DNA from: a virus
Lineage: Duplodnaviria > Heunggongvirae > Uroviricota > Caudoviricetes
DNA length: 64,000 nucleotides
IMG/VR virus record: IMGVR_UViG_2534682349_000001
Direction: 5' to 3' (one strand)
Part shown: piece by piece, positions 12,875-62,755 of the stretch
How positions within the stretch are numbered: position 1 is the first letter of the stretch
Layout of the letters: each line of letters starts with the position of its first letter
The notes under the pieces: model-generated
What the model was told of the DNA's origin: nothing
Seen by the model: the letters and a program-made list of their open reading frames with translations, nothing else
Database searches by the model: none
Translations under genes and position numbers: made by a program

Positions 12875-13191
12875 GATTTATTATTACATCTCAGACGAAA
12901 TGAAAAATCAATTGACATATAGTTGATCATTTAAATTACGCTGAGAGGTTATTTTTAATGTTGAGTTACAAGAAAAACTTCGGTAAAATAAAAAGGTAGA
13001 TATTTTCCCACAAATATCTCACCCCAATATTCATTCACTAAAATCTCCTCCAAGAAATTTTAGTGAAATATATTTTTTAATCTTTAGACACCCTAAACAT
13101 TTTAGGATGTCTTTTTATTATCCTCTTTACGAACATATGTACGCATGATATACTAATAATACAAACGAACGTTCGATTAAAGTGTTAAAGG

Positions 13192-15110: not shown

Positions 15111-15182
15111 ATCTATATGATATAATACTAAAGCAGGCAAGTTTTAAGGACGGTGGCCGATTCCTGACTGGAGGTGGTTCAT

Positions 15183-15359
15183 ATGGACTTCACCATTATG
15201 AAAGGATTATCGGCACATGAGCGCTTACCAAGCACTTATGTTAATGTTGACATTTGCGACATTTATTATCGCATTGTTAACCTTTATTTTCACATTTTGT
15301 GCATAATAAAAGACCGTCCTCGTATAACTTTGGCGAGTTGCAGGACGATCTTTTATTAG
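15183..15359 (+). CDS. small ORF (58 aa) inside an inverted-repeat-flanked mini-cassette. An alternative 29-aa hydrophobic peptide (MSAYQALMLMLTFATFIIALLTFIFTFCA) lies in another frame.
   Basis: GGAGGTG RBS 8 nt before the ATG. Own terminator at 15315–15357. Flanked by roughly 29-bp imperfect inverted repeats at 15130–15159 and 15374–15402. Confidence 0.25.
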   Translation: MDFTIMKGLSAHERLPSTYVNVDICDIYYRIVNLYFHILCIIKDRPRITLASCRTIFY

Positions 15360-25603: not shown

Positions 25604-25664
25604 ATGAGGTAGATGGGAATCGAACCCACATCCTAGCATGATCTACCAATTGAACTACTACCTC
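25604..25664 (-). tRNA. tRNA-like element, truncated (61 nt). It has an acceptor stem, a D-like arm and a T arm but no anticodon arm.
   Basis: 7-bp acceptor GAGGTAG/CTACCTC and T arm GTGGG-TTCGATT-CCCAT. Only about 9 nt sit where the 17-nt anticodon arm should be. Confidence 0.25.
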
Positions 25665-25956
25665 TGTCGGCTTTGTACACTCACCAACATTCCAAAGATC
25701 TTATTTTAAGCTCACAAATTTATTACACGGATAGGAGCTAGGTTCTACGTTTACCTGAATCGCCGTGGTTTCTATAAGAAATTTCTAACAACGAGGGAGC
25801 TACCCTCCGGCTTCAATTTATCGGAAGTGAAACCTTAGACGCTACGTTTCCTATTTATAGACGGATACACGTCTTCTTCGTTATCACCCACTCTGCCGTA
25901 CACCTTCATTGTGTATGATTGAGCTACTCTAGCACATAATGTGACGATCAATCCCC

Positions 25957-26035
25957 GTGCTGGAGGTTGGACTCGAACCAACAACCTGATGATTAAAACG
26001 AATATGGAGTAGACGGGAGTCGAACCCGTGTCCAA
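25957..26035 (-). other. two tandem tRNA 3'-half-like elements (T arm plus 3' acceptor strand) with no matching 5' halves
   Basis: GTTGG-TTCGAGT-CCAAC plus CTCCAGCA, and ACGGG-TTCGACT-CCCGT plus CTACTCCA. No complementary 5' acceptor strand lies within 90 nt. Confidence 0.3.
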
Positions 26036-26441
26036 CCAAACCAGTTTCCAAATACATTTTAGACTTAATAGGACTATGTTCTAAATTTTCGACTTAGGGA
26101 ACGTTACATAGTAATTTTCCAAAAACTACCTAGTCTAGCTAGTTTTAATACTTAGTCACACTCAAACTAGCAAATCATGAACTAAGACCAGAGGGGTGAA
26201 ATATGATAGCTAATATCCTTATCTGGTATCAAAATATTAACCAAGTGCCTATAAGCTAGGCAGCTAAAGCTGTAACTCTATGGTTATTTGCTTTTATATT
26301 TAAATGAAAGTATTTCGGCGTTATCTTCCGTAAGTCGTATTTAGGGCTTTATTTGACTGTCGAATCCATAAACTACCCCAGAATAGAACTTTAAATCATA
26401 GCTCCAAATAATAACTCAAATCGACTTCTTAATGAAGTCTA

Positions 26442-26515
26442 TAACACATACAGGATTTGAACCTGTGACCTCTTACCATTTCGGTAAGTGCTCTACCTAG
26501 CTGAGCTAATGTGTT
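26442..26515 (-). tRNA. tRNA with an atypical anticodon loop; isotype unresolved (loop CGAAATG, no U33)
   Basis: Perfect 7-bp acceptor AACACAT/ATGTGTT, canonical D arm GCTCAGCTAGGTAGAGC and T arm ACAGG-TTCAAAT-CCTGT. Anticodon stem CTTAC/GTAAG. Confidence 0.45.
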
Positions 26516-26981
26516 ACTTATATATCAAAATATTTATTCTGGTGGAACCCCTAACAGCTTTTGCCTTATTCCACATTTATTCCTACTAGCTTCATAGGAT
26601 GGGCATAGTCCTTATCCCTGCTAAGGGGCGCTGTCGTTACTCGCTGAATATTTTGATATGTTCTTGTTAAGGGAGACTCATTTCAAGACCTCAACATCAG
26701 TCGGTTGAATGACTACTTACGCGCTAAGGATGTATACTATCCTTTCATCATCTTCCCACCTGGTAGCTAACCCCACTCACGGATTCCGCACATGCCTACG
26801 CTCCGTCAGCGAATATTGTACCTGTCTTTTATAAAATCCTGATTTTCTCACCTGTTCAGGTTCAGTCTTGAATTAAAACCTCTGCGATCGGTCGTAACCT
26901 TTAATGCAAAGGGATTGTTCTTAAAGATTGATAGCTACGATTTTGTTTTATTTTGCGACCTCGGCTATCTGCTTGCCGCTA

Positions 26982-27076
26982 TACTCCCACCGAGACTCGA
27001 ACTCGGATCATCCAATAATCTGTTGGCATTCGCTCGGGTATAGACCGAGAGCCTTACCAATTAGGCCATGGGAGTG
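26982..27076 (-). tRNA. class II (long variable arm) tRNA with anticodon-loop sequence TCTATAC; isotype uncertain
   Basis: Acceptor ACTCCCA/TGGGAGT, D arm GCCTAATTGGTAAGGC, anticodon stem CTCGG/CCGAG, about 27-nt variable arm, T arm with TTCGAGT. Confidence 0.5.
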
Positions 27077-27254
27077 TAATAAAGAGGTGATTTATTTATA
27101 TTCGCAGCTACACCCCGCTGCTATCACATGCCAACAATACTAGGCAGCCTACCCCACCCTCGTGTTGACTTCGAGACACCAGTTTTACAGTCTATGTTTC
27201 CAAGGACACACTGGATTTACTCTCCGCTCCGTTAAGTGAAATACAATTCTAGCG

Positions 27255-27340
27255 ACGGTACACTAGAATCGAACCACCAATAAGGGATTCGAACCCTCAA
27301 CACCGCGTTGCAATCGCGCCTAGACATCTCATTTGGATTT
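27255..27340 (-). other. tRNA-like region with two T-arm-like motifs and an anticodon-like hairpin (CGCG-ATTGCAA-CGCG). No canonical acceptor found.
   Basis: GAGGG-TTCGAAT-CCCTT and GGTGG-TTCGATT-CTAG motifs on the − strand. Confidence 0.25.
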
Positions 27341-27513
27341 TATTTACTCCTCTTGTTGAACTCACACTTGCGGATTGTGTTTATCTCAAAGGTCTCCATC
27401 AATGCTCTACTAGGTTATCCAATACTTACCATATCCGCATTTATGACTTTCTTGGGTGGTATCCAAACTTGGTGAGAATAAATCAAATACTTAATTTTAA
27501 TATTTGATTTAAC

Positions 27514-27586
27514 TGCAAATATCGGATTCGAACCGATGACACAAGGTTTAACAGACCTCTGCTCTAACCAACTGAGCTAATTTGCA
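27514..27586 (-). tRNA. tRNA-Asn (anticodon GTT)
   Basis: Reverse complement reads TGCAAAT-TA-GCTCAGTTGGTTAGAGC-A-GAGGT-CTGTTAA-ACCTT-GTGTC-ATCGG-TTCGAAT-CCGAT-ATTTGCA. Confidence 0.7.
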
Positions 27587-27841
27587 AATAGTGGTAGTTA
27601 CAAACGATAATCACTACCTGATAGCACGCTTTTATCTCGGACTATCTTTTTTCGGTATTACTACTGTTACAAATACTTCTTCTATAACAGCGAATACATC
27701 ATTAGGTAATTAACCTAAACTCGTTAGAGCGCCCCTGCGTACTAGCAAGTTACTAGCTTGAGGACTTATATGATGGCTTCCCTATAACTCATAGCAATGG
27801 TGTGCGCCCCACCCTAACTACTAATCTGTCTGCCACCGGAT

Positions 27842-27913
27842 TGCGGTAACAGGACTCGAACCTGCGCATGACGGCACCAAAAACCGTTGCCTTACCAACT
27901 TGGCTATACCGCA
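27842..27913 (-). tRNA. tRNA-Gln (anticodon TTG)
   Basis: Reverse complement reads TGCGGTAT-AGCCAAGTTGGTAAGGC-ACGGT-TTTTGGT-GCCGT-CATGC-GCAGG-TTCGAGT-CCTGT-TACCGCA. Confidence 0.6.
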
Positions 27914-28476
27914 AGAATGCTTATTGGACTGGATTTGAACCAGTATCATGACCCAACCACTTCCTAATTCTGATCAGCTTAATCAGACACGACAACTGTC
28001 GCTCGGATTTGCACCGAGATTAGTTGGGTCTCTGACCTTGTAACATCAGCTAAATATTACTTTTAGAGTCACTACAATAAGCGGTATCCACCCAGAAACG
28101 TAAGATAGTAGATTGATAAGTTAAGAGCTTGTTGACTGTGCTAAGTATCAGTCTGATTACTCTTAGAGCTTATATCTTTTTGATGGACATTGACTTAGCA
28201 ATTCTGTCCACGAAAAGTAATCGATAGGACAACCACCAACCTACCTTGTAGAAACGCTGTTAAGCTTTCGTGGTCATGGTCACTCATTCTACTTTCACGG
28301 GGTTCGCCATGACGCGAGCCGCTTGGCTTTTCTTAATAGCCTGCCCAGGCTACCAAAATACAACACTTATTAATAAATAAGTGAAGCGCCATGATTTAGG
28401 CACATATCCACATTTGTTTTCCCTTACACGTTGACCTTTATCCTACTTTGCCGAGGAGGCAACTGCTTATCGGGAA

Positions 28477-28531
28477 TAGTCCTGTTGGGAATCGAACCCA
28501 ATTAATCTTCCTAGTACCATCAGACAGGACT
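28477..28531 (-). tRNA. mini tRNA-like element (about 55 nt): acceptor plus T arm with one 23-nt internal segment
   Basis: Acceptor AGTCCTG/CAGGACT, T arm TTGGG-TTCGATT-CCCAA. Too short for a cloverleaf. Confidence 0.25.
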
Positions 28532-29239
28532 CCAAACATAATACATGTATCGTTTCTTGGTTTATCGGAAGAAACTTGTTAGAAAAGACCGTATCACACT
28601 TTAGGGAAGTGATGGTCCCGGCGTTTTACCGCCGATTAAGGAGTCAAGGTCCAAGTTATCATCTACTATTTTTGGCGTGCTCCCTATTCTTATACACGTC
28701 CTTGGCATCGCAATGCTACAGGGAGAGAGGTTTCATACTATTGTTTCGAGGCCCAACCTTCCAGCCAAGTAGAATCCCATCTAAAACTGGGTATAGCTCC
28801 AGTACGCTCATCTCATTATCAAATGAGATATTTATAAAAGAAGCATTTTACTAACAGAAGGCATAAACTGTCATTCTTCCCACTAGTGGTCAGAACTTTT
28901 TCTAGACTGCTTTTTATTTTTCAAAGGCTTCCGCCAATAACTAGTATGACTTGCAATCTTGTGTTTGTATTATTCAGGGTGTAGATTACCAGATCACCCG
29001 AACCCGCAACCTGAGAATTAAACCCAGCATTAACTTAGGCAATATCTGCATCGCAGGTAGTCGCACACGCAACCATAACAATAAGAAGCGTGGCATCAAT
29101 CACATTACGAGCATTAGAAACTCCTCCAGTTGTGAGTAGGATACCTCGTATAAATCACATTACTGCCATTTATACTCAAGCGCTTCAACCGACATACCTG
29201 TTGCCGGTTTTCCTATTATACATATCCATATAACAGAAA

Positions 29240-55030: not shown

Positions 55031-55490
55031 TTATATTATAGCGTGAACGCTATATAAACAACCCATTTTTTATTAATCGCTCAAGGCTTGCGATTGCTTG
55101 TTGTTTGATTGTGTTTATATTATAGCGTGAACGCTATAATGTGTCAAGCCTTAATTTTAGAATTTTTAGCGGTTGACCTTGAAGTCAAAGTTAGATACTC
55201 AAGTGAACTCACTGTTTAATTCATTTATTAAGTTTGCACCTTTATTATAGTGTGAACGCTATAACGCGTCAAGAAGTAATTTTGATTAATTTTTATCGCC
55301 TAGGCTAGTTCGGTGACTGCTCTTTATTGCGATTAGTCGTTAATCAACTTTACGGCTTTTATTATAGCGTGAACGTTATAAATTGTCAACACCTTTTTCA
55401 AATTATTTTTTGAAGTTCGATGTTTAATTGTTGCCGTTGTCCTTTTGACGATTTTAATTATATAGCGTGAACACTATAAAGTCAACTATA
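55031..55490 (-). promoter_or_regulatory. tandem array of sigma-A consensus promoters (five copies, four near-perfect), each with a TATAGCG-TGAAC-CGCTATA-type palindrome in the spacer, all firing leftward
   Basis: − strand reads TTGACA-cattatagcgttcacgc-TATAAT (55116–55150), TTGACG-N17-TATAAT (55241–55276), TTGACA-N17-TATAAT (55357–55393), TTGACT-N17-TATAAT (55455–55490) and a weaker TTGTTT copy (55031–55062). Spacing is about 110–120 bp. Confidence 0.6.
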
Positions 55491-56354: not shown

Positions 56355-56582
56355 GTGCCAAAGCCCAGAAAATTAACAGACAAACAACGAAAAGAAAGCG
56401 CAATTAATAGCGTTAAAAAGTGGGAATCTAAAAATAAAGATAAAGTAAATTATTATCAATATAAAAGTAAGGCGGTAAACTTTATAAATAAAAAATCTAC
56501 TGAAGAAGATTTAATTTTCTTAAAAAATTTGATTGATAATAAATTACTGGAATTAAAAAATAAAGATAACGATATAGGGTAG
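56355..56582 (+). CDS. small basic protein, paralog of 55523..55759
   Basis: GTG start after an AAAGGGG RBS. Begins (M)PKPRKLTDKQRKESAINSVKKWESKNKDKVNYYQYK. Confidence 0.4.
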   Translation: MPKPRKLTDKQRKESAINSVKKWESKNKDKVNYYQYKSKAVNFINKKSTEEDLIFLKNLIDNKLLELKNKDNDIG

Positions 56583-56599
56583 CACGTTAATATATAGCG

Positions 56600-57290
56600 T
56601 GTTGCCCTTTTGTATTGCGGTGATATGGTAGCGATTACATAATGATGTATATAGTGTAGCAGTATATAGGTAGTACAGTGATATGATGATGTGTGTAGTA
56701 GTGTGTATGATATTGATATGATAGTGTTATGCGTGTCTATGTATAGATGTATATAGGTTAGTGAGTGAGTAACGTTACATAGTGATGTATAGTGAAGTGA
56801 TGTGATAGTGTATTGATGTATATAATGTATTGAGTTAGTAACTGATTTACGTTTGTAGATATTAGATTGTCAAGGCGGAGAGTATAGTGTTGTGTAGCGT
56901 GATTAGTATGTTTGATATAGATGATAATGTTTTCATATGTTATTGTAATGATGGACCAAATGAATAGTATATTGATATGTATATGTATGTATAGAGTTGA
57001 TTGGTTAGTGAGTGAGTTTGGTGTACAGTGTTATGTATTATATTAGGGGTGTGGATTGAGTTACTAAGTGAGTGAATTTATTATTGTTTTGGTGAGCGGT
57101 TATGGTGTGATGTAATTAGTGAATTTATTTGGCGGTGTGAAGTGTGTTTTACTGGGTGTAGTGTTAGGTTGTTAAGGCGTGAAGTGGTGTGTATTAATTA
57201 GGTGTTTGGTGTGATATGTGTGGATGGGTGTTATTGAGTGTGAAGTGTGTTTGATTGTGTGATAGCTGATTACTATATACCAAATTCGAT
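56600..57290 (+). repeat. about 650–700-bp cytosine-depleted, GT/GA-rich low-complexity tract with degenerate short repeats (GTGAGTGAGT, GATATG, TGTATA)
   Basis: The + strand contains only a handful of C residues across about 650 bp. No ORF of 60 aa or more on either strand. Confidence 0.6.
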
Positions 57291-57377
57291 ATATTTAAAT
57301 TAGTGAAAAAGCACCCTACCTCTCAACTGAAATAAATATATTAAGTTTACAACTGTAACCCCTTATAAATAATAATC

Positions 57378-57408
57378 GCCCTTATCAAAAGATAGGGGCT
57401 TTCTTTTT
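57378..57408 (+). terminator. rho-independent terminator
   Basis: gcccttatc-aaaa-gataggggc stem-loop followed by tttcttttt. Confidence 0.6.
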
Positions 57409-57744
57409 CGATATTAAAATATTCTTGTAATCGTTTACACACGATAACAATTATTATTGTGTCTTAAATTTGCAAATAGGCGGGGGTTATTTTACTCAAA
57501 ACGCCTTAATTTTTAGGGGATTTTTTAGACTAGTTGCTTCACTCACACACCACAAAATTTTCCCCATTCACCCCATTTCTCGCACCCTATCACCCCTCAA
57601 ATAACCCAATAAATTACTACCAAATTCACCCTTTTCAAAACTATGAAAATATCTTTCATAATCTTTCATCACAATACCCCTGTCCCTTCCTCTCACCCTC
57701 CTCCATTCAACTATAAATAAAGAGCCTAGGAATTACCCTAGACT

Positions 57745-58071
57745 CTAATTCATCTCATTATTAATATACTTTTCTAACCCAACTCTGGTCTCGTCATCTA
57801 AATTAGCAATATACTCCCTATATTTACTCACATTACTCTTGTCAATACTACTGATTACATACAATATATACCCTTCGTATAGACCATCTGGACACTTTAA
57901 TAATCGCTGCATTAATCTCATCAAATAGTAATACTGCTCATCATAACCATCATTCATATATTTATTCTCAAATATATAATATGCAGTCCAAATAATATTA
58001 TCGTCCCTATTTTCTAAACTGGATATATTCCATAGTTCCTTAATTATAGTATCTAGTTTAACAATCTCCAC
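57745..58071 (-). CDS. hypothetical protein
   Basis: 108-aa ORF. Its 3' side runs into a G-free (on the + strand) stretch. Confidence 0.4.
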   Translation of the reverse strand: MEIVKLDTIIKELWNISSLENRDDNIIWTAYYIFENKYMNDGYDEQYYYLMRLMQRLLKCPDGLYEGYILYVISSIDKSNVSKYREYIANLDDETRVGLEKYINNEMN

Positions 58072-59404
58072 TGTCGTTTCCCCATTCTTATATTAAACGT
58101 ATGTTCTCTTGTTATAATACACGAACGAATGTTCTTTATCAAGTATTATCAGCAACTAGATACATATATCGCTTTGTAGTACATTTTCATATTTATGTTC
58201 TTAATGCCATATACCCAATTATTCTAATTTATGAAAATATTACGCACCCAAAATAGCCATTTTTTGAAACAAAGAAAATTACCCTCTCGCTTTCATGGCA
58301 ATTATTTTCATAAAATTACTCAAAACCACCCCAATTTGCAGCCAAAATAATCTTCGAAACTCCCTATGAACAATTCATCAATTCACAAACTTTCGACTTC
58401 TACACAAACAACATTACTGAATTTAATTATGCTTTGTGAAATTTTCTTCACTAATTCAAGAATTCAATTCCAAATAACTAAAATATGAGTAAAAATTGTT
58501 ATGAAAACATCATTTTATGCACACCTAACTTATTTACGAAACAATCTGTCTTATTGTATAAAACTAGAAATTCATCAATCTTAATATTTCGCACCCTACT
58601 ACTCATGTAACTAACCCTATCGAAACTCCCTATTTTTAATTTTGATATTTTTATTCAAATCACTGAATTTTTTTACCAAAAAATGAACTAATACCAACTC
58701 CTATTTAATAGGATCTAGTAGTACTTTTTTATAATTATTATTCACTTGAGACATCTATTAGTACATCTTCGATAATACAAGGGTTTTCAAACATCTAATT
58801 CCAGAAAATTTCACAAACTTAAAAAGGGTGCGAGGTATTTTTACTCTAATAACCTATAATTATATGTTTCGTATTGGTTCATTATTTCCACTCAGACTAT
58901 TTTTCATAATTACGCCGCCATTTATCCATTGTAATAGGAAGAAACCCTCTATTTTCTATCACTACTTTTATTGTCGCTTGTGAAGTCATCAAAAAATGCT
59001 ATTTCATTTTTATGTAACTATTCTCGCCTTCTTTTTCTCTTTAAACACAGCCAAACATCAACGTAGAATGGACTTAACGGGTCATAAATCAAAATTACAT
59101 TAATTTATCTAAATCAGCTCTTAGCTCCATTATTCATTGTTCGTTTTGATTGTTTATGAGCAATAATTATGTAGGTCAATTATTAAAGCAGCTATTCCAC
59201 AAGTTCCTTTAAATAAAAAACAGCGACAGTAAATACCACCGCTGAAATAATTACGGATTACTTACGTAACCACTTACTAATCTTTTTAATTAGCTTTTTA
59301 ACGTGCTTATTAGGCACGAACAATATTATTAAGCACCAATGCGACACAAGGAGTTACCTCCTCTCTGCACTAGTCGGGTTTCCTACGCCCGCTCAAATGT
59401 GCTT

Positions 59405-59538
59405 TTTAATTGTATCATATTAATTTCATGTTATAATATATATAACAATATTATTAAGCCGTGTGCATCGTGGGTGCTTCCTAACTCACGGATCGGTTTA
59501 ACGTGGGGCGCCCTGATAGGCGCTCTTTTTTTGTTTTA
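59405..59538 (+). ncRNA. candidate small RNA unit (promoter TTGTAT-N15-TTATAAT to terminator)
   Basis: A promoter-like element at about 59408–59436, about 95 nt of structured sequence, then the terminator gcgcc-ctgata-ggcgc plus T9 at 59505–59538. A 16-nt direct repeat AACAATATTATTAAGC also heads a similar unit at 59320. Confidence 0.3.
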
Positions 59539-59679: not shown

Positions 59680-59760
59680 ACAAGTGACTTCTATATGACT
59701 TCTTTAGACAATAACAGTTAAGCTCCTCTATTCCTTATAATTCAATTTGAAGTCACGGTG
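59680..59760. repeat. TGACTTC / GAAGTCA centromere-like repeats downstream of the adaptor gene
   Basis: gtgacttc (59684), atgacttc (59696), ttgaagtcac (59747). Confidence 0.45.
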
Positions 59761-61361: not shown

Positions 61362-61405
61362 AGTTAGTCCCTCCGTATTTCATCTTCACATAATATTATA
61401 CTTCA

Positions 61406-61520
61406 TTTTGACTTCTTTTTGAAGTCGTTTTAGAAATTTAATTGATTTATTTTTTGAATTTGACTTCAAAATGAATTGTATGTGACATCTTAAAGTTTAC
61501 ATGACTTCTTTTTGACTTCC
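61406..61520. repeat. TGACTTC direct/inverted repeats upstream of the actin-like gene (parC-like centromere/operator)
   Basis: ttttgacttcttttt-gaagtc (61406–61426), tgacttc (61461), atgacttc (61501), ttgacttcc (61512). Confidence 0.5.
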
Positions 61521-61543
61521 AAATCACTTTAGTAACATGACAC

Positions 61544-61580
61544 TTGTAACTTGATACATGTAATTTGTAACTTGTAACTA
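61544..61580. repeat. TTGTAAC repeats (three copies) downstream of the parA operon
   Basis: acttgtaac, tttgtaac, ttgtaac. Confidence 0.4.
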
Positions 61581-62659: not shown

Positions 62660-62705
62660 AGGTTTTACACCTCCACTTCTTTATTTAATTACATCTTACT
62701 AAATA

Positions 62706-62755
62706 TTGTAACAAATTACAAGATACTTGTTACTTGTAACAAGTGATATGTAACT
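62706..62755. repeat. TTGTAAC / GTTACAA inverted and direct repeats upstream of parA (parS/operator-like)
   Basis: ttgtaac (62706), cttgttac (62726), ttgtaacaag (62734), atgtaac (62749). Confidence 0.45.

What the first reader, a model, noticed from the sequence alone, without database searches (positions are those of the whole stretch)
57530..59330. Mirror-image G-free tract and extended G-poor ORF-free region; composition polarity flips at about 57.4 kb
Immediately right of the terminator the + strand becomes G-free for about 200 nt (57530–57745, C/A/T only). It stays G-poor with no ORFs from 58080 to about 59330. The 57745..58071 gene is the exception. The − strand here is therefore GT/GA-rich. 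The purine/GT-rich strand switches from + to − at about 57400, with the terminator hairpin at the pivot. Convergent transcripts would both be C-poor. Direct repeats such as TCGAAACTCCCTAT (58358 and 58620) occur. This may mark a replication terminus or origin, a packaging signal, or paired non-coding RNAs.
Basis: seen in the sequence. Interest (0 to 1): 0.55.

Follow-up and report, generated by a model that had tools for sequence, protein, structure and literature searches.

The report
Mirror-skewed non-coding hub of a phage-plasmid
Two neighbouring stretches of DNA that almost lack one base (C on one side, G on the other) are real and conserved in a family of Limosilactobacillus reuteri phage-plasmids, but they mark a non-coding control region between gene modules, most likely a direction-dependent transcription barrier, not the replication origin or terminus.

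Summary
The composition flip is real. On the + strand, 56610-57275 has 3.8% C and 57530-57720 has 2.6% G. These are the only such tracts in the 64-kb window and in a complete 138.5-kb relative. "G-free" overstates it: there are 5-10 Gs, and the tract starts 130 nt after the terminator. The 58080-59330 stretch is no more G-poor than the surrounding minus-strand DNA.

The window is a relative of ~130-kb L. reuteri phage-plasmids. The finding sits in a ~3-kb almost gene-free hub between the early/anti-restriction operon and the ParMR/RepBC/RepA maintenance module.

In the complete relative, cumulative skew puts the origin at repA and the terminus ~77 kb away. The element is only a local blip, so the origin/terminus reading is not supported.

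Fifteen related elements keep a 558-772 nt C-poor tract. Its sequence is hypervariable and microsatellite-like, so composition and length are maintained rather than sequence.

RNA read away from the pivot is C-rich, G-poor, structure-free and lacks start codons, which is rut-like. RNA read toward the pivot has almost no YC dimers.

Best reading (confidence 0.3): a polar, Rho-sensitive insulator or attenuator around a conserved regulatory core. Rivals are an R-loop/ssDNA mutational footprint or lytic origin, C-free ncRNAs, a protein-binding array, and neutral slippage.

The parts
56576..56608 (+). Intrinsic terminator-like hairpin (T1). It ends the small + strand genes (75-aa ORF 56355-56582) and marks the left border of the C-poor tract.
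   Evidence: 14-pair stem, T-rich tail. Conserved in relatives.
56615..56643 (+). Candidate promoter TTGCGG-17-CATAAT just after T1. It could drive a C-poor RNA of about 750 nt toward the central terminator.
   Evidence: Read from the sequence. The site is conserved in most lineages, but the -10 is spoiled in L003. Inference only.
56610..57275 (.). Left tract. The + strand has 3.8% C, 30% G and 40% T. It is built of microsatellite-like C-free units such as TATG, GTGA, TAAGTGAG and GGTGTG. The sequence is hypervariable, but length and composition are conserved.
57272..57299 (-). Promoter-like site TTTAAA-16-TATAGT with an imperfect palindrome (57275-57294) in its spacer. It points leftward into the left tract. 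Every lineage has an equivalent site, with a different palindrome (ATGAAAAATTTTTCAT) in L001/L003/L004/L005/L023.
   Evidence: Function is inferred.
57378..57399 (+). Central intrinsic terminator hairpin (GCCCTTATC-AAAA-GATAGGGGC followed by TTTCTTTTT). This is the 'pivot'. It is good in the + direction and poor in the - direction.
   Evidence: Conserved in L001, L002 and L003. Absent in the L004/L005/L023 type.
57481..57557 (.). Conserved 77-nt core (CGGGGGTTATTTTACTCAAAACGCCT ... CAGTTGCTT..CACACACCACAAAA). These blocks are invariant in all six aligned lineages, including the otherwise unalignable ones.
57530..57720 (.). Right tract. The + strand has 2.6% G and 36% C. It lies downstream of the terminator of the 108-aa gene. 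It is extreme only in the window/L001/L002/L003 type and merely G-poor (about 7%) in the L004/L005 type.
57721..57746 (-). Terminator-like hairpin at the end of the 108-aa gene.
57745..58071 (-). 108-aa protein gene of unknown function, with no Pfam, PHROG or NCBIfam match. It is absent from the L004/L005/L023 type.
58095..58142 (-). Promoter TTGATA-17-TATTAT of the 108-aa gene. Two LexA-box-like dyads overlap it: AAACGTATGTTC (58095-58106) and CGAACGAATGTTC (58122-58134).
   Evidence: The second dyad is the only exact CGAACNNNNGTTC in 64 kb. LexA binding is inferred.
58072..59220 (.). Conserved, mostly non-coding, moderately G-poor region. It carries repeated short motifs: the palindrome-like ATTTTCATAAAAT sites, CGCACCC (three direct copies here plus one at 57581 in the right tract, and one inverted copy at 58826), TCGAAACTCCCTAT x2, a GTGAA-N-TTCAC dyad at 58433-58459, and a second copy of the core motif at 58831-58855.
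59221..59530 (.). Probable type I toxin-antitoxin module at the right edge of the finding. Its parts are a - strand terminator (59221-59244), a 29-aa hydrophobic/basic ORF (59258-59347, -) and a + strand small RNA running from about 59445 to terminator 59505-59526. The first 15 nt of that RNA (ACAATATTATTAAGC) repeat 59320-59334, inside the toxin ORF.
   Evidence: Inference from anatomy.

Best explanation
The finding is the core of a ~3-kb, almost gene-free control region of a Limosilactobacillus reuteri phage-plasmid. The region lies between the early operon on the left and the maintenance genes on the right. The early operon has five consensus promoters leading into ArdA. The maintenance genes are a type I toxin-antitoxin, ParMR, RepB/RepC and RepA.

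The two skewed tracts flank a conserved regulatory core. That core holds an operator-bearing promoter, a hairpin terminator and a 77-nt invariant block.

I propose the tracts act through their bulk strand composition on untranslated RNA:
- RNA transcribed away from the core is C-rich, nearly G-free and unstructured. It lacks start codons and Shine-Dalgarno sequences. That makes it an ideal loading site for the termination factor Rho.
- RNA transcribed toward the core is nearly C-free. It offers Rho almost nothing to bind and runs until the intrinsic terminator.

The pair would therefore work as a direction-dependent barrier, or as an attenuating leader for the promoter at 57299-57272. Transcription from the maintenance side would be kept from running into the early lytic/anti-restriction operon, and the reverse.

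Shown: the composition, its uniqueness, its conservation without sequence conservation, and the RNA properties. Inferred: which strands are transcribed, and that Rho acts here.
For: - The tracts are unique and extreme in the window and in a complete relative.
- Fifteen related elements keep a 558-772 nt tract with 1.8-4.8% C, 27-32% G and 39-44% T.
- The tract itself evolves fast. Window versus L008 shows 13.7% substitutions plus 111 gap columns, against 0.8% in the adjacent pivot. It consists of different simple repeats in different lineages. So length and composition are maintained, not sequence.
- Polarised singleton changes avoid the depleted base. In the left tract, gains of G were 19/227 against gains of C 5/302, and T>G was 11/134 against A>C 0/79. 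In the right tract, T>C was 7/59 against A>G 1/63.
- The outward RNA of the left tract folds to only -20.5 kcal/mol over 666 nt, against -140.6 for the inward RNA.
- Every 78-nt window of the outward RNAs has C/G >= 3.7 and at least 6 YC dimers. These RNAs have only 5 and 2 start codons and no SD-like sites. The inward RNAs have about 0 YC dimers.
- This model accounts for both the depletion of G and the two-fold enrichment of C in the outward RNA.
- A promoter-like site with a palindrome in its spacer points into the left tract in every lineage.
- The central hairpin is a good terminator only in the + direction. That matches the longer and universally conserved tract being on the side reached by leftward read-through.
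- Rho protein exists in Lactobacillaceae (Lactiplantibacillus proteome, PMC10927959).
Against: - There are no transcription data, so the direction of transcription is inferred from consensus scans. Those scans found no excess of promoter-like sites (33 found against 30.4 expected).
- Rho in L. reuteri itself was not checked, and Rho plays a smaller role in Bacillota than in E. coli.
- Known rut sites are about 80-100 nt and only moderately G-poor. A 670-nt tract at 3-4% G is more than the model needs.
- The model does not explain the T>A excess of the left tract (40% against 26%), its alternating purine/pyrimidine pattern (0.60-0.68 against 0.50), or the recurrent AGTGA motif.
- The right tract is weak in the L004/L005 type.
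- Apparent substitutions in low-complexity DNA are partly alignment artefacts.
- Only one such site exists per genome, whereas an ordinary kind of terminator would be expected at other junctions too.
Confidence: 0.3

Rival explanations
1. Footprint or instrument of persistent single-strandedness, such as an R-loop or D-loop at a secondary (lytic) origin. Transcription toward the pivot gives G-rich RNA. The displaced G/T-rich strand is then exposed to deamination and slippage, as with the vertebrate mitochondrial H strand, the D-loop and R-loop-primed origins.
For: - The left tract has both G>C and T>A on the + strand, which is the classical signature of the exposed strand.
- A>G exceeds T>C on the G-rich strand in both tracts.
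- The tract is a mutation and indel hot spot next to a slowly evolving core.
- A candidate inward promoter lies after T1.
- The region is unique per genome and lies beside a dense cluster of iteron-like ATTTTCATAAAAT sites. There are 7-12 copies, tandem at 14-21 nt spacing in L004/L005, and they fall in the top 2-kb bin genome-wide.
- The element encodes its own helicase, primase and DnaE.
Against: - C>T and G>A per-site rates are equal (0.21 and 0.19), and T>G transversions are frequent. Deamination explains neither.
- G is doubled, not merely retained.
- The right tract has no T excess.
- There are few G clusters and no canonical G4 motif.
- The inward RNA is 40% U, which is poor for stable hybrids.
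- Gene-proximal terminators sit in front of both tracts.
- No initiator gene is adjacent.
- Small derivatives (about 52-58 kb; pLRI01 is 53 kb) keep the matching region. Whether they have lost the phage genes was not checked.
Confidence: 0.2
2. Array of protein-binding sites on DNA. This could be a centromere-like, copy-control or looping scaffold built of one-orientation half-sites (AGTGA/GTGAA and others). The skew would then be a by-product of the motif.
For: - AGTGA (TCACT on the other strand) occurs 9-18 times per tract against about 2.3 in dinucleotide-preserving shuffles, in all six lineages.
- The motif is mirrored in the invariant core (GAGTGAAG on the - strand) and forms a dyad GTGAA-N-TTCAC at 58433-58459. 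That dyad is conserved even in the non-homologous L004-type region.
- The hub is packed with other short conserved motifs.
Against: - The inferred sites of the two partition systems are different. GACTTC flanks parMR and CTTGTAAC flanks repBC.
- AGTGA enrichment follows trivially from (GTGA)n expansion.
- The unit types differ between lineages (TATG, GTGA, GGTGTG, TTTTATTGGGGG), yet all avoid C.
- No candidate binding protein was identified. The neighbouring small proteins fall in phrog_2277, of unknown function.
Confidence: 0.15
3. Convergent, nearly C-free non-coding RNAs that end at the shared central terminator and act as RNAs, for example as Rho- and MazF-resistant regulators or sponges.
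For: - Both tracts have the polarity of the gene upstream of them and lie between a gene-proximal terminator and the central terminator.
- A conserved candidate promoter follows T1.
- C-free RNA lacks YC dimers and cannot contain ACA or UACAU sites.
Against: - Neither inward RNA folds significantly better than shuffled sequence (z = -0.86 and -1.18).
- No Rfam family matches.
- The sequence is hypervariable.
- The central terminator is missing in the L004/L005/L023 type.
- No inward promoter is evident for the right tract.
Confidence: 0.15
4. Functionless simple-sequence DNA. Replication slippage keeps re-expanding C-free microsatellites in a tolerant intergenic gap.
For: - The tract has a microsatellite-like make-up and many indels. 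One lineage has a 76-nt perfectly alternating run and 300 nt without a single C.
- Assembly breaks fall in or near it.
Against: - The tract is kept at 558-772 nt in 15 elements despite rapid turnover and the usual deletion bias of bacteria.
- Unrelated unit types all avoid C.
- Conserved islands lie inside the tract. Window 56911-57191 aligns to L004 and 56921-57564 aligns to L002.
- A second tract of opposite polarity lies across a conserved core.
Confidence: 0.15
5. Origin or terminus of the main replicon, or the packaging (pac/cos) site.
For: There is a local polarity flip. IMG/VR contigs break nearby.
Against: - In the complete relative, cumulative skew places the origin at repA and the terminus at 76.7 kb, with only a local blip here (PMC4667477).
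- Candidate Chi- and KOPS-like polar oligomers are absent from the element. GAAGCGG is 16:1 and GAAGAAG 48:5 on leading versus lagging strands elsewhere, with 0-1 copies here.
- Contig breaks fall at different repeats in different assemblies.
- In relatives the terminase gene lies on the other side of repA.
Confidence: 0.05

Closest known systems
Rho utilisation (rut) sites, Rho-dependent terminators and long Rho-sensitive leaders (for example lambda tR1, or the E. coli rho and rpoS leaders; from established knowledge)
   Same: The outward RNAs are C-rich, G-poor, unstructured and untranslated. Composition is conserved while sequence is not.
   Different: The tracts are much longer (190-670 nt) and far more depleted (2.6-3.8% G) than described rut sites. 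They form a mirrored pair around a core and are built of simple repeats. Action by Rho is untested, and the host is a Lactobacillaceae member where Rho is little studied.
Bidirectional terminators between convergent genes
   Same: Convergent units meet at a hairpin at 57378-57399, flanked by gene-proximal terminators.
   Different: The hairpin is efficient in one direction only and is absent in some lineages. The skewed tracts have no counterpart in ordinary bidirectional terminators.
Strand-asymmetric control regions shaped by single-strandedness (vertebrate mtDNA H strand and D-loop; R-loop-primed origins such as ColE1 and T4 oriF/oriG; from established knowledge)
   Same: One strand is G/T-rich, the region is hypervariable and lies next to conserved blocks, there is one per genome, and the tract is about 650 nt long.
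   Different: No initiator, primer-processing site or hybrid was shown. The substitution spectrum is only partly deamination-like. The main replicon's origin is elsewhere.
Anti-immunity / immunity loci of phage-plasmids (N15 SOS-controlled antirepressor and CA RNA; P1 c4; P4 CI RNA; from memory, used as a lead only)
   Same: This is a phage-plasmid. A small gene sits behind LexA-like boxes (58095-58134). A non-coding stretch carries one inverted and four direct copies of a short motif (CGCACCC). The position is between maintenance and early genes.
   Different: There is no sequence or family match. The RNA, its processing and any antirepressor activity are all untested. Those systems have no extreme skew tracts.
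pAD1-type RepA_N / RepB-RepC replicon with short iterons
   Same: The neighbouring backbone is of this type. It has a RepA_N initiator, a ParA-like RepB and RepC, and repeat clusters on both sides of repBC.
   Different: The repeats flanking repBC are CTTGTAAC-type in this window, not the GT-rich units. The skewed tracts lie 4-5 kb away, beyond the ParMR module.

Membership tests
Replication origin/terminus of the replicon (skew inflection) | Genome-wide extremum of cumulative GC skew at the site | tested here: not met
   In the complete relative p53608_1 the minimum is at 138,196 (repA) and the maximum at 76,727. The element is a local blip. In the window the curve keeps falling across 57.4 kb.
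Replication origin (any, including a lytic origin) | Iterons or initiator sites with an adjacent initiator gene, plus experimental initiation | tested here: inconclusive
   An iteron-like ATTTTCATAAAAT cluster lies right of the pivot in all lineages. No initiator gene is adjacent, and the motif is not conserved at repA promoters. Initiation cannot be tested here.
Rho-dependent terminator / rut site | RNA window of about 78 nt or more with C>G, regularly spaced YC dimers and little structure | tested here: met
   For the outward RNAs, C/G is >=3.7 (left) and >=8.6 (right), with >=6 and >=12 YC dimers in every 78-nt window. MFE is -20.5 kcal/mol over 666 nt.
Rho-dependent terminator / rut site | The RNA is untranslated | tested here: met
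   The outward RNAs have 5 and 2 potential start codons and 0 SD-like motifs. There are no ORFs of >=40 aa on those strands within the left tract.
Rho-dependent terminator / rut site | Host encodes Rho, and termination depends on it | not tested
   Rho protein is reported in Lactiplantibacillus (PMC10927959). The L. reuteri gene was not checked, and dependence needs an experiment.
Intrinsic terminator (the 'pivot') | G+C-rich hairpin followed by a T run | tested here: met
   57378-57399 has 9 pairs followed by TTTCTTTTT. It is conserved in L001/L002/L003 with a wobble-to-Watson-Crick change. It is absent in L004/L005/L023.
Chi / KOPS-type polar motif array | A specific oligomer that is strand-polar across the replichores and concentrated here | tested here: not met
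   The tract motifs AGTGAGT and TATGTAT are not polar elsewhere. Polar oligomers of the relative (GAAGCGG 16:1, GAAGAAG 48:5) have 0-1 copies in the element. The host chromosome was not available.
G-quadruplex-forming region | Four G3+ runs with loops of 1-7 nt | tested here: not met
   No canonical motif occurs in any tract of any lineage.
Microsatellite / simple-sequence repeat | Tandem short units with length polymorphism | tested here: met
   TRF finds arrays at 56706-56988. L002 has a long (TATG/TATA)n array and L004 has (GTGAGTAA)n and (GTGA)n. The 5-way alignment has 183 gap columns out of 737.
Known RNA family (Rfam) | Match at or above the gathering score | tested here: not met
   No match lies in 54.4-60 kb. 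The best sub-threshold hits are chance-level.
Partition centromere of ParMR or RepBC | Repeats shared with the sites flanking the cognate operon | tested here: not met
   GACTTC repeats flank parMR and CTTGTAAC repeats flank repBC. Neither makes up the tracts.

The most novel reading that the evidence does not exclude
The tracts form a composition-encoded one-way gate for untranslated transcription. The two arms are nearly invisible to Rho when read toward a regulatory core and maximally Rho-sensitive when read away from it. Selection would act on base composition alone, so the sequence is free to churn as microsatellites. The gate would insulate or attenuate the early lytic/anti-restriction operon of a phage-plasmid. 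A related possibility is that the same arms serve as paired R-loop zones of a lytic origin.
Probability: 0.25. Interest if true: 0.7.

Novelty: new variant of a known kind. Interest (0 to 1): 0.45.

Why it matters
Phage-plasmids must keep their lytic genes silent while their plasmid genes are expressed next door. How that insulation works in Gram-positive elements is largely unknown.

Here a 0.6-0.75 kb stretch keeps an extreme base composition and its length across at least 15 elements while its sequence turns over quickly. That is a clear sign of selection, or of a strongly biased process, acting on a bulk strand property.

If the property is Rho sensitivity, this would be a simple, portable, orientation-dependent transcription barrier. 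It would also be a natural test bed for Rho function in lactobacilli. If it is single-strandedness, it would point to the lytic origin of a poorly studied group of ~130-kb L. reuteri phage-plasmids that carry tRNAs, a tmRNA and their own replisome genes.

Either way, the result warns against reading a local skew flip as an origin or terminus.

Tried and rejected
- **Origin or terminus of the replicon.** Rejected by cumulative skew of a complete relative and by the published replichore structure.
- **Chi or KOPS arrays protecting or steering toward the pivot.** The tract motifs are not polar elsewhere, and the polar oligomers of the relative are absent from the element.
- **G-quadruplexes.** No canonical motif occurs.
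- **Centromere of ParMR or RepBC.** Their inferred repeats are different.
- **RepA iterons or autoregulation for the TTTTCATA sites.** The motif is not conserved upstream of repA in relatives.
- **Known RNA families.** None match.
- **Coding potential.** The 41-aa ORF 56921-57046 inside the left tract is truncated in L004 and L002 (read). The 60-aa ORF 57534-57716 exists only because G-free DNA has few stop codons.
- **HUH nick site.** TACTCTAATA at 58841-58850 resembles the pT181 nick region from memory. No Rep or relaxase gene is annotated in relatives, which are typed non-mobilizable, so I dropped it.
- **MazF decoy.** UACAU occurs at 16/kb in the outward RNA against 1.6/kb in the window. 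That is only about 2 sd above dinucleotide-preserving shuffles in five of six lineages, so I treat it as a side effect of composition.
- **Searches that gave nothing.** Pfam, PHROG and NCBIfam searches of the neighbouring small proteins gave no function. The 9-sequence protein alignment was too diverse for a metagenome scan. The phage collection held only a 62-nt match, in the toxin region.
Full report
**What the window is**

The region around the finding matches large plasmids of Limosilactobacillus reuteri at about 79-85% identity. Examples are NZ_CP102426.1, NZ_CP065541.1 and p53608_1 (LN906635.1).

These records carry phage genes: terminase, a 9-kb tape-measure gene, holin, endolysin and a tail specificity protein. 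They also carry primase, a DnaE polymerase and ligase, beside a RepA_N-type initiator, a ParA-like RepB with RepC, and a ParM/ParR pair.

The window itself encodes:
- a RecD2-like helicase, a DnaB-like helicase, an AAA_24 protein and a metallophosphatase;
- tyrosine recombinases, a C5 methylase and a NAPRTase;
- ArdA (annotated in relatives);
- a tmRNA and eight tRNAs.

So the element is a phage-plasmid. The paper describing p53608_1 calls it a megaplasmid with a RepA/ParA replicon and an incomplete prophage. It reports that 98.8% of its genes lie on the leading strands (PMC4667477).

**Checking the observation**

- On the + strand, 57530-57720 has 5 G in 191 nt (2.6% G, 36% C).
- The mirror tract is larger. 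56610-57275 has 3.8% C, 30% G and 40% T, with C-free runs up to 87 nt.
- These are the only 200-nt windows with <=4% C or G in the 64 kb, and they hold the most extreme skew values. The same holds in the complete 138.5-kb relative.
- Between the tracts lie about 250 nt of ordinary composition. This stretch contains the hairpin terminator at 57378-57399 and a conserved core.
- The 58080-59330 stretch has 9.7% G and 19.2% C. That is no more skewed than minus-strand coding DNA at 48-53 kb, and its substitutions are strand-symmetric.
- That stretch is largely non-coding, with no codon periodicity (p=0.42). The 108-aa gene does show periodicity (p=0.01).
- The stretch does hold a 29-aa toxin-like ORF and a 35-aa ORF that is intact in four of five relatives.
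- The repeat TCGAAACTCCCTAT is exact, at 58354 and 58620.

**Local anatomy, from left to right**

1. Five consensus promoters on the - strand, each with the palindrome TATAGCGTGAACGCTATA, lie at 55037-55485. They lead leftward into small genes and ArdA.
2. An 88-aa gene sits on the - strand, and small genes sit on the + strand up to 56582. The 88-aa and 75-aa products are paralogues in phrog_2277, of unknown function.
3. Terminator T1 lies at 56576-56608.
4. The C-poor tract follows.
5. A - strand promoter-like site (TTTAAA-16-TATAGT, 57299-57272) with a palindrome in its spacer points into that tract.
6. The central terminator comes next.
7. A 77-nt core lies at 57481-57557, with blocks that are invariant in all lineages.
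8. The G-poor tract follows.
9. The terminator of the 108-aa gene lies at 57746-57721.
10. The 108-aa gene comes next. Two LexA-box-like dyads overlap its promoter (58142-58114), including the only exact CGAACNNNNGTTC in the window.
11. A conserved non-coding stretch follows, rich in short repeated motifs.
12. A probable type I toxin-antitoxin pair comes next.
13. Last are parR-parM, repC-repB and repA.

The repeats that flank parMR (GACTTC) and repBC (CTTGTAAC) differ from the units of the skewed tracts.

**The origin/terminus idea**

I joined the three pieces of p53608_1 and computed cumulative skew.
- G-C has its minimum at 138,196, just upstream of repA, and its maximum at 76,727, where gene orientation flips.
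- The element at 131.5-132.8 kb is a rise of about 160 followed by a fall of about 130, on a limb that drops by about 3,700 overall.
- In the window the curve turns at about 14 kb and keeps falling past 57.4 kb.

A second, lytic origin is not excluded by skew.

**Comparative evidence**

Fifteen related elements carry a C-poor tract of 558-772 nt with 1.8-4.8% C, 27-32% G and 39-44% T. They are:
- five plasmids, including the 53-kb pLRI01;
- four IMG/VR loci, one of them cut off by the end of its contig;
- five metagenome contigs;
- the window itself.

One more distant homologue of the neighbouring 88-aa gene lacks the tract, and a second locus holds only a weaker C-poor stretch (547 nt, 7.1% C).

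The sequence of the tract is not conserved.
- p53608_1 begins it with about 300 nt of (TATG/TATA)n without a single C.
- Another lineage has (GTGAGTAA)n, (GTGA)n and TTTTATTGGGGG units.
- Between the window and L008 the tract differs at 13.7% of sites and in 111 gap columns. The adjacent pivot differs at 0.8%.
- Only the first ~80 nt after T1 and the right ~350 nt align between lineages, at about 70%.

Changes polarised on terminal branches avoid the depleted base.
- In the left tract, gains of G were 19/227 against gains of C 5/302. A>G was 0.10 against T>C 0.04 per site. T>G was 11/134 against A>C 0/79.
- In the right tract, T>C was 7/59 against A>G 1/63.
- Part of this may be misalignment of low-complexity DNA, but the right tract has almost no gaps.

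The right side is modular.
- The L004/L005/L023 type lacks the 108-aa gene, the central hairpin and most of the homologous non-coding DNA.
- That type keeps the core, a second core-like motif (GGGGTATATTTACTCTA), a GTGAA-N-TTCAC dyad and 7-12 ATTTTCATAAAAT sites, some in tandem at 14-21 nt spacing.
- Its right tract is only moderately G-poor.
- The palindrome in the promoter at the tract edge comes in two types. ATGAAAAATTTTTCAT occurs in L001/L003/L004/L005/L023, and ATATCRAATTYGATAT-like occurs in the window and L002. This looks like specificity swapping.

**What the tracts would do as RNA**

- The - strand RNA of the left tract folds to -20.5 kcal/mol over 666 nt, which is essentially unstructured. 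The + strand RNA folds to -140.6 kcal/mol, no better than shuffles.
- The outward RNAs are the - strand of the left tract and the + strand of the right tract. They have C/G >= 3.7 and >= 8.6, and at least 6 and 12 YC dimers in every 78-nt window. They have 5 and 2 start codons and no SD-like site.
- The inward RNAs have a median of 0-1 YC dimers per window.

From established knowledge of Rho (loading on C-rich, G-poor, unstructured, untranslated RNA through YC dimers), the arms would be strongly Rho-sensitive when read away from the core. They would be almost Rho-blind when read toward it.

This reading explains both the depletion of G and the two-fold enrichment of C. It explains conservation of composition and length without sequence. 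It fits the position between convergent units and between the maintenance genes and the early operon. It also fits the longer, universal arm lying where the hairpin is a poor terminator. The promoter pointing into the left tract would make that arm a long attenuating leader.

Rho exists in Lactobacillaceae, but I did not verify it in L. reuteri.

**Why confidence is only 0.3**

- Nothing shows which strands are transcribed.
- The tract is far longer and more extreme than known rut sites.
- The model leaves several things unexplained: the T excess of the left tract, its alternating purine/pyrimidine pattern (0.60-0.68 against 0.50 in shuffles) and the recurrent AGTGA motif.

The main rival is persistent single-strandedness, such as an R-loop or D-loop, possibly at a lytic origin.
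- It fits the G/T-rich exposed-strand signature, the hot-spot behaviour, the one-per-genome rule and the neighbouring iteron-like cluster.
- It is weakened by the symmetric C>T and G>A rates, the frequent T>G changes, the lack of G clusters and the terminators in front of both tracts.

Functional C-free RNAs, a one-orientation protein-binding array and neutral slippage remain possible. The retention of a tract of 558-772 nt in every relative argues against pure neutrality.

**Ideas tested and dropped**

- Chi/KOPS arrays.
- G-quadruplexes.
- Known partition centromeres.
- RepA autoregulatory sites.
- Rfam families.
- Coding potential of the small ORFs inside the tracts.
- An HUH nick site. This rested on a remembered resemblance only, and no Rep or relaxase is annotated.
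- A MazF decoy. The UACAU excess is mostly compositional.

**Verdict**

The origin/terminus interpretation is not supported.

The feature is a conserved, unique, compositionally polarised pair of untranslated spacers. They flank a regulatory core in the non-coding hub of a phage-plasmid. It is closest to Rho-dependent terminators and leaders in how it would work, but it is not shown to be one.

I rate it a new variant of a known kind, with moderate interest. Its value lies in being easy to test with strand-specific RNA-seq and orientation-swap reporters.

Noticed in passing
window 25605-30000 (- strand): A tmRNA (26002-26379, 76 bits) and eight tRNA genes are carried by the element. The published relative also lists tRNAs. 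A tmRNA on a phage-plasmid is unusual.
   Followed up: no
window 15111-15286 (+): A full-length match to the Listeria sRNA family rli28 (73.5 bits, gathering score 45) lies near the point where gene orientation and skew flip.
   Followed up: no
window 55037-55485 (- strand): Five near-consensus promoters (TTGACA-17-TATAAT) lie about 100 nt apart. Each encloses the palindrome TATAGCGTGAACGCTATA (0.04 expected by chance). They head an ORF-free kilobase that leads into small genes and ArdA, like a phage early or plasmid leading region. A half-site of the palindrome (TATAGCGTG) also sits in terminator T1.
   Followed up: partly
window 58095-58142 and 13130-13175: LexA-box-like dyads overlap the promoter of the 108-aa gene, which suggests SOS control and possibly an antirepressor-type gene. 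A second pair of near-consensus boxes lies 32 nt apart at about 13.1 kb, near the skew turning point.
   Followed up: partly
window 59221-59530: A probable type I toxin-antitoxin module. It has a 29-aa ORF (MSHWCLIILFVPNKHVKKLIKKISKWLRK, - strand) followed by a terminator. A divergently placed + strand small RNA has an extended -10 promoter and its own terminator. Its first 15 nt are complementary to the toxin mRNA. The block 59262-59320 is the only part of the query matched in many L. salivarius plasmids and in L. reuteri phage LR2.
   Followed up: partly
window 56930-58901; L004 6395-6595; L005 5103-5322: The palindrome-like motif ATTTTCATAAAAT recurs 7-12 times within about 2 kb in every lineage, even where the surrounding DNA is not homologous. 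Four copies are tandem at 14-21 nt spacing in L004/L005. This is the densest 2-kb bin genome-wide. The binding protein is unknown.
   Followed up: partly
window 57311, 57581, 58243, 58590 (+) and 58826 (-): CGCACCC occurs only four times in the 64 kb, all within 57.5-58.9 kb and one of them inverted. A related GCACCCTAC copy lies at 57311. On one transcript the inverted copy could pair with the others, which recalls RNA-based immunity in P4 and P1 (from memory). The 35-aa ORF 58499-58606(-) overlaps one copy.
   Followed up: no
window 59686-59760, 61400-61520, 61538-61580 and 62700-62750: GACTTC repeats flank the parMR operon on both sides, and CTTGTAAC repeats lie downstream of repC and between repB and repA. 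These are likely the two centromere sets. Relatives have different repeat sequences at the same places.
   Followed up: partly
L013-L015 (p53608_1, whole plasmid): GAAGCGG is 16:1 on leading versus lagging strands. It is the Chi sequence of S. aureus, from memory. It may be the Chi-like motif of this host or element.
   Followed up: no
L003 6650-8330; L004 4176-5306: Insertion sequences have landed in this non-coding hub in relatives. An IS200/IS605 tnpA-tnpB pair sits at the equivalent of window ~59160, and an IS30 sits just left of the C-poor tract. Several draft assemblies break at the promoter repeats or inside the tract.
   Followed up: no
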